Both the position numbers and the translations under genes were made by a program. Below, piece by piece: positions 10,816 to 15,669 of a stretch of 64,000 nucleotides of DNA; within the stretch, counting starts at the first letter, position 1, and each line of letters starts with the position of its first letter. The DNA comes from Candidatus Omnitrophota bacterium (lineage in GTDB: Bacteria > Omnitrophota > Gorgyraeia > Gygaellales > Profunditerraquicolaceae): assembly GCA_018825985.1 (NCBI GenBank), contig JAHKAP010000018.1, positions 4,134-68,133 on the forward strand, given 5' to 3'. The notes below the pieces were generated by a model, which worked only from the letters and a program-made list of their open reading frames with translations, was not told the origin of the DNA and made no database searches.

Positions 10816-13800
10816 TTAACTTATCGAATCAACGATAACCAGAGCTTCCCTAAGTTCAGCCGAGCTTTCCAACGCGCTCTCTTCTTCCAGCTTACAGATA
10901 TCTATCAGACAGAGTAAGAGATTGTCAACCTGGGCATTGATCTCTTTCTTCTGGCAACAGGCAGCGATCAACTCTTTAAGCCTGTCACCTGAAGGTATAT
11001 TCCCGGCTTTAACCATATTCCTGATCTGCTCTATCTCAGAAGTAATATTGATCTGCCTTAACTGCTCCTGGCTTAAAACGGGCAAGCTGAAATTCAATCC
11101 CTTAAAACTTCCCGTAGGTTGAATGGTCATGGGTAGGGAGCGTAAGTCGATACCGCCGGTAGTTTCAGGAGCTGATTGAACCGGAGAACTACCTGTACCT
11201 TTGCCTTTAAGCTCAACAGATAGAACCTCGCCCTCCGATGACTTACCTAACAAAATCCTAAAACGTCCATCGCGATCTAACTTAGCAACTACCTGTAACA
11301 AACCACCCTTACTTATAGTATCCGGAGATATCTGGGAATTAACCAGCACGAGTAAGTTCGGCAAAATAAAGTATTCCGTAGCATCGCTCATTATATTTTT
11401 GCCAAAGTGTTCATCAAGAAACTTAGCTACTTTATCCCATGTAGCCGTTGATACATCCACCGGCGAAGCGGCGGAAACTATTACCCGCGTGACATCCGGG
11501 GTATTAAGATCAATACCTGTTTCTACATCAATGATGCGGTTAGTGGTCTCTTCTTCTGCGTCCTTACGCACCAGCTTATCCCTGCCCCATACACTTGCAA
11601 TTATACCTATTCCGATTTTCTCAATTCGCTTTTCAATATCTTGAATGTATAGATGCGCGCTGCGCGTAGGCACATCCCTGCCGTCAGCGGCAAAATGGAT
11701 TACAAATTGGTCTTTTCTTAAGTCTAATTTCTTGGCTAATCTCATCAATGCATACATATGATAAAGTGAAGAATGCACTCCGCCTTCAGAAGCAATGGTT
11801 ATATAATGGAACCTCAAATCATTCTCTTTAACCCTTTGCAATTCTTTTACCAAAACCTGAACCTCGGGCATACTTTCATCAAAGATGCCATCGCGAATAC
11901 CGCCCTTAACCAGCCTATCTACATACCACAAGGGTTGTTTATATTCTCTTAACGCAAACATGGCAAAATGGCCAACATCTGTCTGGCCTGCTTGCAAACC
12001 TCTTAAATGGTGCCTGCCTTCTTCCCAAGATAACTCTTTCCTTAACCCAATCACTTCTCCGTGCGCCTGTAGCTGAGTAAAACCACAGGCATTCTTGACC
12101 AACCAGTCATAATTGGGGGTATTGGCGAGCTTGATAGCGTCCCATTCGTAATTCTGGTCGGGATTTATACCCCAGCCATCCAAAACAGCCATCGCGATCC
12201 TGCGTTTACTTCCCTGATAATCATCAGGCAGCAAGCTCGGGTCGGATCCTTCGGGGATATCTTCTCCCAATAGATGTAATAACGTAGCCCCGTTGTTTCT
12301 AATAGTTTGCCCAGACTTTAAGGTTAATTTCCGGGTTCTTAAAGGATCATAAATAATATACGGTACTGGATTTGCAGTATGGAAAGTATCGGATTCCTTA
12401 GGATTTTCTGTCAGCCCAGCTTCTGAAGCGCCATGATCGGCAGTGATAACAAAGATTGGTATCCTTGCTTCAAAACCATTTATCCTCGAATAAAGTATCT
12501 GATTTATTTCTTTTAATCGGATCAAGAAACTATCATAATCAGTTAATAACAAGTTATCGAGAATAATCCGCGCTCTTTCATCTAGTGGATAAGAAGAAAC
12601 CTCTTCTCTTATTTTCTTAATAAACTGTCTTTTTATGCTATCGATCTTTTCTTTTATCCTTCCGATCTGCTGGTCGGTTATTTCATTGGCCTGTTTAGCT
12701 GACTTAAAGTTTCCGGTATGTTTCATCATATCTGAACCAAGTAAGTTCACCAGAATAAAATCTATAGTATCGTCATCCAATCCTCTCAATACCTCATCGG
12801 TACATTCTTTGGTTTTCATCTGGGGCGTATCTGCATAGGCCTTTTTAGATTTCTGCATTTCTATATTAATCCGCTTTTCTCCGGGATAAGGCCCATCTGT
12901 TTTCTTGCCATCTGCATTATTACCAACATGATCCTTCTTTTCGTTCTCAGAAATCTTAAGCACTTTATACATTTTGTTGGACAATATCTCGAAAAAGGTA
13001 TTAGGCACTTTAGCAATTACCTCATCAGACAAAACACTCTTGCCTTGATAATCATTACTAAATTTGATGTATCCCAATAATTTCTTAAAACCCCTGCTCC
13101 ACAGGCCTCTGGCAAAATATCCGGCCCGGTCACCCCTGACGTGCCCGACCATAACTGAATCTTCCGGCGATATAGGATGCAGCGGCTTACCGTTTTCGTC
13201 AGTAACAACAGTAAACTTTAGTACTTGCTCATTTACATCTTCCTCCAACAGGCTTTGCTCCTGTTCAACTGCCTTAGCTAAATCTGAAATTATCGGCGAG
13301 CCGGCAGCGCTTTTACTTTTTTCGCTATCAAGATGCTTCTTTATTTTATCGCGGGCATCAACAACTTTTCCAATTAACCGGTATCTTTTTTCCTTTTCCT
13401 TATTCAGCTCATCTATTTTTATATTCAATATTTCTAAAGTTTCTTCATTAAGATAGAACCTTAATGTAATAGCTGCGTCTATGGCTACTAAATCGTTTGA
13501 ACTATTGAGTCTTTCTATTAACTCTTTTAAATCATTAAATAAACTTTGGCTGGGGAAAACACCATTTTTATATAACACCTCAAGATTCCTCTCCATAGTT
13601 AAAATAATATTGATATTCGGATTTTCTTTTTTAACCTCCGCTTGCAGCGTTGTAAGATAATTATCAGCATCTTTTGTTTCTGTAACAATTGCCGAAACTA
13701 AACTTGTAACCGCTGAGCCGGCTGCGGTAACTGGCAAGCTAGAGGCGGCGTCAAAAAACGCCCTGGCCCGGCTAAAAATGCGGATAGCGGTTAACATCCC

Positions 13801-15669: not shown

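What the first reader, a model, noticed from the sequence alone, without database searches (positions are those of the whole stretch)
10816..15669. Stand-alone giant secreted multi-module protein of unknown function embedded in housekeeping operons
This is a 1617-codon gene that appears to have its own transcription signals:
- a promoter (TTGAAA-17-TATATT);
- a structured leader of about 220 nt;
- a strong SD;
- a Sec-type signal peptide (MARKILSLVLSFGLLFQQVSFAQV);
- a dedicated terminator.
It lies between pilD-aroE and trxA. Apart from the iPGM-like module, I do not recognise the other segments as known families. These are the roughly 380-aa N-terminal domain (with FWVNLRPD, TDVGKIMLETDLQLKKD and RYANFRQVYYSLILSRWFK), the roughly 370-aa helical middle region and the roughly 210-aa C-terminal region. 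The prepilin peptidase gene lies immediately upstream on the same strand. Fusing an exported giant scaffold to a cytoplasmic-type glycolytic enzyme fold is not an architecture I know to have been described.
Basis: partly seen in the sequence, partly recalled or inferred. Interest (0 to 1): 0.85.

Follow-up and report, generated by a model that had tools for sequence, protein, structure and literature searches.

The report
Exported enzyme-carrier protein of Omnitrophota
The gene is real and encodes one member of a huge, unnamed family found almost only in Omnitrophota bacteria, in which normally cytoplasmic enzymes (here a rearranged but apparently active phosphoglycerate mutase) sit between a shared secretion-type N-terminal module and a shared C-terminal module, each gene preceded by the same previously undescribed leader RNA.

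Summary
Window 10816-15669 (-) is a 1617-codon, single-gene unit with a promoter-like site, a structured leader, an AGGAG ribosome-binding site, a Sec-type signal peptide and a terminator, lying between leuA-aroE-pilD and trxA-pta.

It is not a one-off. The first ~372 residues ("N-cap") and the last ~120 ("C-cap") are 55-73% identical in hundreds of Omnitrophota proteins. An N-cap profile finds 7,705 cluster representatives, always at the protein's N-terminus.

Between the caps lie exchangeable cargo modules separated by A-[SGA]-S-P-[VIL] linkers. In relatives the cargo is PGK, enolase, GAPDH, TIM, PGI, PMM, PEP synthase, nucleotide kinases and others.

Here the cargo is a complete, circularly permuted iPGM. 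It has a Thr nucleophile, every metal ligand, and all substrate-binding residues but one (R191K).

A closely related genome has the same caps at the same locus but different cargo.

About 105 nt of the leader form a covarying two-hairpin RNA (GGAGG loop plus terminator). It was found upstream of 47 of 83 family genes and matches no Rfam family.

Neither cap matches any Pfam, NCBIfam or PDB entry.

Export (inferred) is supported by signal-peptide features and 3.4-fold cysteine depletion. What the caps do is unknown.

Two preprints describe glycolytic domains in giant Omnitrophota proteins, so I call this a new variant of a known kind.

The parts
15899..15927 (-). Sigma-70-type promoter-like site, TTGAAA-17-(TG)TATATT
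   Evidence: 10 of 12 positions, TG extension. The same motif is conserved upstream of family genes in other genomes.
15776..15884 (-). Family-specific leader RNA motif. P1 hairpin lies at 15873-15846 with an invariant GGAGG loop (15861-15857). It also has conserved UGCCACG and GGGUC sequences. A terminator-like hairpin at 15828-15781 overlaps a U-run that ends at 15776.
   Evidence: Covariance models score it 83 bits (R1) and 68 bits (R2). On the fitted alignment 94.9% of cells are paired and 17 of 21 pairs show compensatory changes, against 29-48% paired in slid controls. No Rfam match.
15670..15775 (-). Rest of the 5' leader, with extra hairpins not conserved in L001 and the AGGAG ribosome-binding site at 15681-15677
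10816..15669 (-). Whole coding sequence: 1617 codons plus the stop codon
   Evidence: It is 100% identical to the partial NCBI MAG protein KJ722_04765 (P0001).
15604..15669 (-). Predicted Sec signal peptide, residues 1-22, with predicted cleavage at SFA|Q
   Evidence: Read from the sequence; the same features occur in 209 family N-termini. No other TM-like segment in the protein.
14554..15603 (-). N-cap, residues 23-372: the family-defining module (FWVNLRPD, TLTRPWIVPGE, RQVYYSLILSRWFK, GQxIRSYFSGG)
   Evidence: 55-73% identical in hundreds of proteins. A profile finds 7,705 cluster representatives, always at the N-terminus. AF2 gives a mixed alpha/beta model with pLDDT 67. No fold or sequence relative in PDB.
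14413..14553 (-). Low-confidence linker, residues 373-419, with two linker motifs (AGSPI at 378, SASPI at 415)
   Evidence: pLDDT below 50.
13750..14412 (-). Cargo module A, residues ~420-640, function unknown, ending in the degenerate linker AASSLPV
   Evidence: 26-31% identical to segments of family proteins P0005 and P0041. No Pfam match.
13303..13749 (-). Cargo module B, residues ~641-789, function unknown and not structurally modelled, ending in the linker AAGSPI (790)
Evidence: No homologue found.
11470..13290 (-). Circularly permuted cofactor-independent phosphoglycerate mutase (iPGM) module, residues 794-1400. Residues 814-1139 match canonical 230-500. Residues 1154-1370 match canonical 2-192.
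   Evidence: Fourteen of 15 catalytic positions are conserved in kind: all seven metal ligands and seven of eight substrate-binding residues. Two positions are substituted, Ser62 to Thr and Arg191 to Lys.
11191..11457 (-). Small alpha/beta module, residues 1405-1493, preceded by the linker SAASPV (1401)
   Evidence: AF2 secondary structure, pLDDT 50-70. Conserved only in the closest relative P0002, and only as far as residue 1465.
10819..11190 (-). C-cap, residues 1494-1617: the linker GSSPV, then GGIDLRSLPMTIQPTGSFKGLNFSLP, then a five-helix bundle holding 4 of the protein's 7 cysteines
10758..10774 (-). Intrinsic-terminator-like hairpin followed by a T-run, beginning 41 nt after the stop codon

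Best explanation
The gene encodes a Sec-exported, soluble, modular 'cap-cargo-cap' protein of a very large family found almost only in Omnitrophota.

**Shown:**
- A signal-peptide-like N-terminus and a ~350-aa N-cap, plus a ~120-aa C-cap, are shared by thousands of proteins.
- Between the caps are exchangeable modules separated by A-[SGA]-S-P-[VIL] linkers.
- Here the main cargo is a complete iPGM in a circularly permuted topology. All seven metal ligands and seven of eight substrate-binding residues are kept, with Thr as the nucleophile and R191K.
- The gene is a single-gene unit behind a conserved promoter.
- Its ~105-nt leader RNA (a hairpin with a GGAGG loop, then an intrinsic terminator) recurs upstream of more than half of the sampled family genes.
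- Cargo can be replaced between the caps at an otherwise syntenic locus.

**Inferred:**
- The protein crosses the inner membrane by Sec and is cleaved after SFA.
- The caps are common handling modules for sorting, anchoring or assembly in the envelope or on the surface. They would work the way dockerins or secretion CTDs serve many different enzymes.
- The mutase module is active outside the cytoplasm on 3-PG/2-PG or a similar phosphoester, as one of a co-regulated set of exported central-metabolism enzymes.
- The leader terminator makes expression depend on regulated read-through, by attenuation or processive antitermination. That would make the family a regulon.
For: **Family and caps.**
- One search returned 866 hits, essentially all labelled Omnitrophota.
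- One search shows the N-terminal ~400 and C-terminal ~125 residues matching while the middle varies.
- One search found 7,705 cluster representatives, with the N-cap always at residues 1-~400.
- One search found 417 loci, several per genome.

**Linkers.** The motif occurs 431 times against 50 expected from shuffling. In the query it sits at 378, 415, 790, 1401 and 1494, which are the module boundaries.

**iPGM.**
- Searches show the permuted order.
- One search shows stand-alone permuted iPGMs exist.
- One search shows the 15 catalytic positions are invariant across eight SP- or cap-bearing sequences (including the query) that are 51-77% identical to the query. That argues for selection on catalysis.

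**Export.**
- Canonical n/h/c regions occur in 209 N-termini.
- There is no other TM segment.
- Family cysteine content is 0.34% against 1.17% in the window's other ORFs.
- SP-bearing mutase modules have 0-2 Cys, while SP-less stand-alone Omnitrophota homologues have 3-9.
- Other Omnitrophota permuted iPGMs carry unrelated signal peptides.

**Leader.**: 47 hits lie 26-421 nt upstream of 83 N-cap genes, none in control loci, with strong covariation.

**Cargo swap.** Nucleotide synteny with L001 stops at residue ~387 and resumes at residue ~1499.
Against: - Export is predicted from sequence rules only. SignalP/DeepTMHMM could not be run and there are no proteomic data.
- The cargo repertoire is typical of the cytoplasm: ATP- or NAD-dependent enzymes, DnaJ, response regulators and methyltransferases. 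It is hard to see how these would work outside it.
- The N-cap model is only moderately confident (pLDDT 67), so 'no known fold' is weak evidence.
- Nothing links the caps to any secretion or anchoring machinery.
- The leader terminator has not been shown to terminate. A consistent anti-terminator was found only in a sub-clade.
- Whether this genome also has a cytoplasmic iPGM is unknown, since only 64 kb are available.
Confidence: 0.55

Rival explanations
1. Cytoplasmic, membrane- or scaffold-tethered metabolon. In this reading the hydrophobic N-terminus is an uncleaved anchor or assembly helix. The caps tether active enzymes on the cytoplasmic side, which would allow substrate channelling between co-tethered glycolytic steps.
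For: - All cargo types are cytoplasmic in kind and need ATP, NAD or cytoplasmic partners.
- Consecutive glycolytic steps are fused in relatives (GAPDH+PGK, PGK+enolase, PMM+FBA+TIM).
- Catalytic residues are conserved.
- The 2026 preprint favours a cytoplasmic-face reading for the many giants that have TM helices but no signal peptide.
Against: - The n-region is positive and the residues after the h-region are neutral or acidic, which favours N-in/C-out topology, meaning export.
- The h-region is only 12 residues and is followed by a conserved [GS]-F-A|Q cleavage-type site.
- The family is strongly depleted in cysteine, as exported proteins are, whereas SP-less stand-alone homologues are not.
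- Stand-alone SP-less permuted iPGMs exist in the phylum for the cytoplasmic job.
Confidence: 0.2
2. Effector delivered into a host or prey cell. In this reading the caps are recognition or translocation modules of an unidentified delivery system. The enzyme cargo would act in the prey cytoplasm, where its substrates and cofactors exist, to reprogramme or drain prey metabolism.
For: - Omnitrophota are inferred to be ultra-small, host-dependent or predatory (PMC10066038; West-Roberts 2023).
- There are conserved ends with cassette-like cargo turnover between close relatives.
- There are many paralogues per genome.
- Co-regulation through a common leader is typical of effector repertoires.
- It would solve the cofactor problem.
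Against: - No delivery machinery is linked to the genes, and flanks differ between loci.
- A Sec signal peptide is not the usual entry to one-step injection systems.
- The cargo is made of housekeeping enzymes with no toxin or immunity logic; the downstream gene is trxA.
- The idea is entirely inferential.
Confidence: 0.12
3. Exported polyprotein. In this reading the A-S-S-P-V motifs are cleavage sites, and the caps only serve export and folding. After export the chain would be cut into free modules, including a free ~600-aa mutase.
For: - The linker motif sits at the module boundaries and is 8.6-fold enriched.
- West-Roberts et al. propose post-translational cleavage of giant Omnitrophota proteins.
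Against: - No protease domain is present in this protein, and none is associated with the loci.
- A Ser flanked by Ala and Pro fits an O-glycosylation or simple linker motif equally well.
- There is no experimental support.
Confidence: 0.08
4. Ordinary housekeeping iPGM that has picked up neutral extra domains, or an assembly or annotation artefact.
For: The gene lies among housekeeping genes, has window-typical GC and has an intact active site.
Against: - The same architecture is recovered in independent assemblies (P0001 at 100% identity, P0002, P0003).
- Thousands of relatives have the same caps.
- It scores below the NCBIfam iPGM cut-off (215.6 against 330.65 bits).
- The caps and leader are conserved, which means they are under selection.
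Confidence: 0.03

Closest known systems
Giant multi-enzyme proteins of Omnitrophota ('Archaeovorins', West-Roberts et al. 2023 preprint; 'multi-enzyme metabolic cluster' class, 2026 preprint 10.64898/2026.06.07.730766)
   Same: - Same phylum.
- Long single polypeptides that string together metabolic enzyme domains (PMM, TIM, PGI, FBA, PPDK, methyltransferase, HATPase, NUDIX, HD, receiver) with HEAT/TPR repeats.
- Most carry a signal peptide and/or TM helices.
- Glycolytic-type domains are predicted to be extracellular.
   Different: - This protein has 1.6 kAA, not 10-147 kAA.
- It has no TM helices, HEAT repeats or glycosyltransferase domains.
- It is defined by a conserved N-cap and C-cap, ASSPV-type linkers and a leader RNA. 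I did not find any of these mentioned in either preprint.
- An iPGM cargo is not listed there.
- Whether the giants carry the same caps was not tested.
Cofactor-independent phosphoglycerate mutase (iPGM; TIGR01307, PF01676+PF06415; structure 1EJJ)
   Same: - The whole enzyme is present: 26-33% identity to canonical enzymes over both halves.
- All seven Mn ligands and seven of eight substrate-binding residues are kept.
   Different: - Circular permutation at canonical residue ~217/220.
- Nucleophile Thr instead of Ser62, and Arg191 changed to Lys.
- Embedded in an exported 1617-aa protein.
- Below the NCBIfam equivalog cut-off.
Cellulosome enzymes (signal peptide + catalytic module + dockerin)
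   Same: Many different enzymes share one conserved non-catalytic module, are exported by Sec and are joined by Ser/Pro-containing linkers. This is a functional analogy for what the caps may do.
   Different: There is no dockerin or cohesin signature. There are two caps instead of one. The cargo is central-metabolism enzymes rather than polysaccharide-degrading ones. No scaffoldin is known.
Type IX secretion cargo (signal peptide + cargo + conserved C-terminal domain) and autotransporters
   Same: A Sec signal peptide, a variable passenger and a conserved C-terminal module.
   Different: The C-cap is a five-helix bundle, not a beta-sandwich CTD or a beta-barrel. A 350-aa conserved N-cap is present in addition. 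No T9SS or autotransporter family was hit.
Leader-RNA attenuators and processive antitermination leaders (riboswitches; LoaP-type leaders with a hairpin plus intrinsic terminator upstream of long operons)
   Same: A conserved promoter-proximal hairpin is followed by an intrinsic terminator ahead of a very long coding region. It has covarying stems and conserved unpaired nucleotides.
   Different: There is no match to any Rfam family. No ligand or protein partner is known. Termination was not demonstrated. The comparison with LoaP comes from my own knowledge and was not tested here.

Membership tests
iPGM (TIGR01307 / PF01676 + PF06415) | Significant match to the metalloenzyme and iPGM_N domains | tested here: met
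   PF01676 at 1e-30, PF06415 at 5.7e-29; PDB 1ejj at 1e-40.
iPGM (TIGR01307 / PF01676 + PF06415) | Canonical order of segments (N-terminal phosphatase part, transferase domain, C-terminal phosphatase part) and a score above the equivalog cut-off | tested here: not met
   The order is canonical 230-500 followed by 2-192. TIGR01307 scores 215.6 bits against a cut-off of 330.65.
iPGM (TIGR01307 / PF01676 + PF06415) | Catalytic Ser62 nucleophile | tested here: not met
   Thr is at this position in the query and in all Omnitrophota-type permuted homologues. Thr nucleophiles are known elsewhere in the alkaline-phosphatase superfamily (my own knowledge).
iPGM (TIGR01307 / PF01676 + PF06415) | Mn ligands (D12, D403, H407, D444, H445, H462) and substrate-binding residues (H123, R153, D154, R185, R191, R261, R264, K336) | tested here: met
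   All are conserved except R191, which is Lys.
iPGM (TIGR01307 / PF01676 + PF06415) | 3-PG/2-PG mutase activity | not testable with these tools
   Needs an enzyme assay.
Omnitrophota cap-cargo-cap family (defined in this report) | N-cap at the N-terminus with the motifs FWVNLRPD, TLTRPWI and SYFSGG | tested here: met
Omnitrophota cap-cargo-cap family (defined in this report) | C-cap at the C-terminus (GGID[FL]R..LP..QP, PSG.R[IL]KE, EALV[IL].DS) | tested here: met
Omnitrophota cap-cargo-cap family (defined in this report) | A-[SGA]-S-P-[VIL] linkers at module boundaries | tested here: met
   Five copies in the query, all at boundaries. The motif is 8.6-fold enriched across the family.
Omnitrophota cap-cargo-cap family (defined in this report) | Family leader RNA directly upstream | tested here: met
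   Window 15776-15884 scores 83 and 68 bits.
Sec (SPase I) signal peptide | Positive n-region, hydrophobic h-region of 7-15 residues, small residues at -3 and -1 | tested here: met
   MARK / ILSLVLSFGLLF / QQVSFA|Q. This is a rule-based reading only; SignalP was not available.
Sec (SPase I) signal peptide | Actual cleavage and export | not testable with these tools
   Needs proteomics or reporter fusions. Cysteine depletion is indirect support.
Archaeovorin / giant Omnitrophota proteins | Length of 10 kAA or more, with TM helices, HEAT repeats and glycosyltransferase domains | tested here: not met
   1617 aa, no TM beyond the signal peptide, no HEAT or GT Pfam hit.
Archaeovorin / giant Omnitrophota proteins | Metabolic-enzyme domains within a signal-peptide-bearing polypeptide from Omnitrophota | tested here: met
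T9SS cargo / autotransporter / dockerin-bearing enzyme | Beta-sandwich CTD, C-terminal beta-barrel, or dockerin repeats | tested here: not met
   No Pfam or NCBIfam hit. The C-cap is modelled as a helical bundle at pLDDT ~97.
Type IV pilin-like prepilin peptidase substrate | N-terminal G|F/M-x-x-x-E class III signal | tested here: not met
   The motif is absent from the N-terminus. pilD adjacency is seen in only 2 of 79 loci.
Known cis-regulatory RNA families (Rfam 15) | A match to a covariance model | tested here: not met
   No match at E <= 1 in 10500-16200.

The most novel reading that the evidence does not exclude
A subset of Omnitrophota exports a co-regulated set of catalytically active central-metabolism enzymes on common carrier modules. 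The set would include PGK, GAPDH, enolase, TIM, FBA, PGI, PMM, PEP synthase, nucleotide kinases and this permuted iPGM. In effect this would be an extracytoplasmic glycolytic toolkit, working in the periplasm, at the host interface or inside prey. It would be switched on by a new riboswitch-like or antitermination leader RNA and diversified by cassette exchange between the caps.
Probability: 0.2. Interest if true: 0.95.

Novelty: new variant of a known kind. Interest (0 to 1): 0.75.

Why it matters
**A testable form of an open problem.** Omnitrophota are uncultivated, ultra-small and probably host-dependent. Their very long multi-enzyme proteins are an open puzzle. This gene shows that the same design exists in a compact form with defined parts: a shared signal peptide plus N-cap, a shared C-cap, a linker motif and a shared leader RNA. 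The form is also very abundant, with more than 7,700 sequence clusters.

**Experiments this makes possible.**
- Is a cap-fused glycolytic enzyme exported and active?
- What do the caps bind?
- What does the leader sense?

**If export is confirmed.** It would mean that central carbon metabolism enzymes work outside the cytoplasm in a whole bacterial lineage.

**By-products of independent value.**
- A candidate new cis-regulatory RNA with strong covariation.
- Two unreported topological variants of iPGM: circularly permuted enzymes with a Ser or a Thr nucleophile.

Tried and rejected
**Searches that found nothing.**
- Pfam, NCBIfam and PADLOC scans of the whole protein hit only the iPGM domains.
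- Pfam scans of five short family members gave no family for the caps.
- A profile search of PDB sequences with the N-cap and the C-region found nothing below E = 0.1.
- The Foldseek afdb50 library was unavailable.
- The homology search with the middle region (residues 421-794) returned nothing, not even the identical P0001, so that search was uninformative. Local BLAST found only P0005 and P0041.
- There is no second family gene in the window.
- Rfam has no match in the locus.

**Literature.** Seven searches found no description of the caps, the linker motif, the leader or a permuted iPGM. The Kizina et al. 2022 paper on 'Ca. Velamenicoccus archaeovorus' is not held.

**Ideas rejected or left open.**
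- A link to the prepilin peptidase was rejected.
- A leader peptide after the GGAGG loop was rejected, because no start codon is suitably placed (read).
- A universal anti-terminator could not be shown. A 5' flank complementary to the terminator's 5' strand exists in one sub-clade only.
- I could not establish whether stand-alone and cap-fused iPGM occur in the same genome.
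Full report
**1. The observation**

An ORF runs 10816..15801 on the minus strand. The ATG at 15669 gives 1617 codons. AGGAG lies 7 nt upstream of it, and every relative starts at the equivalent M..RKILSL, so this ATG is the start.

- A promoter-like TTGAAA-17-(TG)TATATT lies at 15927..15899, and a terminator-like hairpin with a T-run at 10774..10758.
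- The count of promoter-like sites in the region is no higher than in shuffles (16 against 14.1). The single match is therefore weak by itself, but the same promoter is conserved upstream of relatives in other genomes.
- The 223-nt leader folds better than all 200 shuffles, z = -4.0.
- Neighbours are leuA, aroE and pilD upstream, and trxA, pta, panD, def, trxB and PEPCK downstream.
- Farther away are ilvB, ilvD, pfkA, ahcY, metK, ptsI, recJ, argS, trpB, murA, prfA, rho, glgA and polA.
- All genes are on one strand and GC is uniform.

The locus is an ordinary chromosomal region of an Omnitrophota bacterium. A partial NCBI MAG protein, KJ722_04765, is 100% identical to the gene product.

**2. 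Anatomy of the protein**

Residues 1-22 (MARK / ILSLVLSFGLLF / QQVSFA|Q) have the three regions of a Sec signal peptide. No other segment is TM-like.

BLAST against 120 relatives shows a striking pattern. Residues 1-~420 and ~1490-1617 match at 55-73% and 31-75% identity, while the middle does not match. I call the two conserved ends the N-cap (23-372) and the C-cap (1494-1617).

A short motif, A-[SGA]-S-P-[VIL], occurs 431 times in the 120 proteins, against 50 expected from shuffles. In the query it sits at 378, 415, 790, 1401 and 1494, with a degenerate AASSLPV at ~641. These positions are the module boundaries.

The resulting chain, in order, is:
- signal peptide
- N-cap
- linker
- module A (420-640)
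- module B (650-789)
- iPGM module (794-1400)
- small alpha/beta module (1405-1493)
- C-cap

**3. The iPGM module**

Alignment with Geobacillus iPGM (1ejj) shows query 814-1139 matching canonical 230-500, and query 1154-1370 matching canonical 2-192. This is a clean circular permutation with the cut inside the transferase domain.

A search with the module alone found two groups of stand-alone permuted iPGMs:
- 606-635-aa proteins that are the module's closest stand-alone relatives, 44-50% identical, with no signal peptide. They carry no source name. I take them to be Omnitrophota-type because the named members of this clade are Omnitrophota.
- 528-548-aa proteins from other lineages, one cluster including an Anaerolineales MAG. 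They are about 40% identical to canonical iPGM.

All are cut at canonical residue ~217/220.

Of 15 catalytic positions, 13 are identical to the canonical enzyme in the query. The two exceptions are Ser62 to Thr and Arg191 to Lys. Both changes are shared by all the Omnitrophota-type permuted sequences, fused or free.

Eight SP- or cap-bearing sequences, including the query, are only 51-77% identical to it overall, yet they keep the query's residue at all 15 positions. That argues for selection on catalysis (inference). The module is therefore most likely an active phosphomutase. It fails three formal iPGM membership criteria: topology, Ser nucleophile and the equivalog cut-off.

**4. The family**

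- The full-length search gave 866 hits, and those that carry a source name are labelled Omnitrophota/Omnitrophica.
- An N-cap profile run against 1.84 billion cluster representatives found 7,705 proteins at E <= 1e-3 and 6,397 at E <= 1e-30. In the 150 best hits listed, the N-cap lies at the protein's N-terminus. Their lengths range from 410 to 6,439 aa.
- A scan of species-representative genomes found 417 loci. Of the 79 listed, nearly all are from Omnitrophota MAGs, with several per genome and at least six in one MAG.
- At least 134 of 210 fetched members have both caps by a strict pattern. Most of the others have a variant C-cap or are truncated.

Cargo domains in relatives include PGK, enolase, GAPDH, TIM, class II FBA, PGI, PMM/PGM, PEP synthase/PPDK, iPGM and cellobiose phosphorylase. 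They also include HPr kinase, guanylate and adenylate kinases, NUDIX, HD, DnaJ, FHA, receiver, HATPase, methyltransferase, GNAT, TPR and HEAT.

Consecutive glycolytic steps are often fused: GAPDH+PGK, PGK+enolase, PMM+FBA+TIM.

Neither cap has a Pfam or NCBIfam model. Neither has a relative in PDB by sequence profile.

- The C-cap ends in a five-helix bundle with pLDDT ~97. It resembles only generic or designed bundles.
- The GGIDLR..LP..QP segment before the bundle is modelled as coil.

**5. Cargo exchange**

Locus L001, from a related MAG, has the same gene order: leuA-aroE-pilD-[family gene]-trxA-pta-panD-def-trxB-PEPCK. Its neighbours are 78-93% identical in protein sequence.

Nucleotide similarity with the window runs through the promoter, leader and N-cap up to window 14508 (residue ~387). 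It then vanishes, apart from one 108-nt patch inside module A. It resumes at window 11173 (residue ~1499), which is the start of the C-cap.

The L001 protein (P0005, 1794 aa) has no iPGM. The cargo has therefore been replaced between the caps at an orthologous locus.

**6. The leader RNA**

Part of the window's leader (15912-15774) is 73-88% identical to sequence upstream of family genes in other genomes.

Thirteen such leaders align into two hairpins:
- P1, whose stem sequence varies freely but whose loop always contains GGAGG.
- A terminator-like hairpin followed by a U-run.
- Conserved UGCCACG and GGGUC sequences.

Covariance models built from these leaders found 41 and then 47 plus-strand hits in 1.3 Mb of loci and window.

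- All but one lie 26-421 nt upstream of an N-cap start codon; the typical distance is ~50 nt.
- The exception sits at the very end of a locus.
- The few minus-strand hits are weak palindromes.
- Two control loci have none.

On the 42-sequence alignment, 94.9% of cells pair and 17 of 21 pairs show compensatory changes. Slid controls pair at 29-48%. That alignment is fitted to the model, which inflates these figures somewhat.

Rfam has no match.

In many loci the terminator lies only ~50 nt before the ribosome-binding site, with no room for another promoter. Expression must therefore depend on read-through (inference). The leader is thus a candidate attenuator, riboswitch or processive-antitermination element common to the family.

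A 5' flank able to pair with the terminator's 5' strand exists in one sub-clade only. The switching mechanism is therefore open.

**7. Where the protein goes**

*Evidence for export.*
- Canonical signal-peptide features occur throughout the family.
- There are no further TM segments.
- Family cysteine content is 0.34%, against 1.17% in the window's other ORFs.
- SP-bearing mutase modules have 0-2 Cys, while their SP-less stand-alone homologues have 3-9.
- Four of the query's seven Cys are clustered in the C-cap bundle.
- Other Omnitrophota permuted iPGMs carry unrelated signal peptides.

*Evidence against export.* The cargo repertoire is cytoplasmic in character.

I put export at roughly 0.75. 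The role of the caps as common sorting, anchoring or assembly modules, by analogy with dockerins or secretion CTDs, is inference only.

**8. Comparison with what is known**

The closest described objects are the giant Omnitrophota proteins.

- West-Roberts et al. (2023 preprint) report TIM, PGI, FBPase, PMM, FBA and PPDK domains in predicted extracellular parts of 'Archaeovorins'. They themselves doubt the localisation.
- A 2026 preprint describes 'multi-enzyme metabolic cluster' proteins of 10 kAA or more, of which 94% carry a signal peptide or TM helices.
- I did not find the caps, the linker motif, the leader RNA, cargo exchange or a permuted iPGM mentioned in either preprint. My other literature searches found none of these either.

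The present gene is therefore best filed as a new, compact and very abundant variant of a known but unexplained kind.

The pilD neighbour is lineage-specific. pilD is near a family gene in only 2 of 79 loci, and the N-terminus is not a prepilin signal.

**9. Verdict**

The feature is real and its anatomy is resolved. Family membership is certain, catalytic competence is likely and export is probable. The function of the caps and of the leader is unknown.

- Interest: 0.75.
- Most novel reading not excluded: a co-regulated, exported set of active central-metabolism enzymes, probability ~0.2.

Noticed in passing
window 15776-15884 (-); also L001:9087-9195, L004:9845-9947, L017:6070-6165 and about 43 other loci: A candidate new cis-regulatory RNA. 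It has a hairpin with an invariant GGAGG (Shine-Dalgarno-like) loop, conserved UGCCACG and GGGUC sequences, and an intrinsic terminator. It is found only upstream of cap-family genes, shows strong covariation and has no Rfam match.
   Followed up: yes
window 11470-13290 (-); proteins P0124-P0129, P0151, P0163, P0166, P0222: Circularly permuted iPGMs also exist as stand-alone enzymes. One group is 606-635 aa with a Thr nucleophile and is the closest stand-alone relative of the window's module. Another is 528-548 aa with a Ser nucleophile, and one of its clusters includes an Anaerolineales MAG. All are cut at canonical residue ~217/220. I found no paper describing this.
   Followed up: partly
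window 11173-14508 against L001:10457-14332: At a syntenic locus in a related MAG, the family gene keeps its promoter, leader, N-cap and C-cap but carries entirely different cargo. This points to cassette-like cargo replacement between the caps.
   Followed up: yes
query residues 378, 415, ~641, 790, 1401, 1494 (window ~14536, 14425, 13747, 13300, 11467, 11188): The linker motif A-[SGA]-S-P-[VIL] marks every module boundary and is 8.6-fold enriched across the family. It could be a cleavage site, an O-glycosylation site or a phosphorylation site. This is unresolved.
   Followed up: partly
proteins P0121, P0122, P0123, P0344: Other Omnitrophota permuted iPGM homologues carry unrelated signal-peptide-like N-termini without the N-cap. 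Export of this enzyme type seems to have arisen more than once.
   Followed up: no
L023:7955-9400: An iPGM-like region co-linear with the query's permuted module (25% identity) lies directly upstream of a cap-family gene in MAG FW104_bin.10.
   Followed up: no
L016/L017 (same MAG) and L027/L041 (same MAG): Leader RNAs of different family genes within one genome are nearly identical. This fits either a regulon or concerted evolution.
   Followed up: no
window 10819-11190 (-), C-cap: Four of the protein's seven cysteines sit in two adjacent helices of the C-cap bundle (AACCQK and LLLCLIDIC). At least two of these positions are conserved in the family. They could form a disulfide or a metal site.
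   Followed up: no
window 1-64000: All 50 ORFs of 150 aa or more that do not overlap a longer ORF are on the minus strand, and GC skew is negative throughout. The window therefore lies within one replichore, with strong co-orientation of genes. It also holds stand-alone pfkA (27165-28130), ptsI, PEPCK and glgA.
   Followed up: partly
(query window:13288-14409:-): The word-indexed homology search with the middle region returned no hit, not even the 100%-identical P0001 that the full-length search had found. That negative result is a limitation of the tool, not evidence that homologues are absent.
   Followed up: partly
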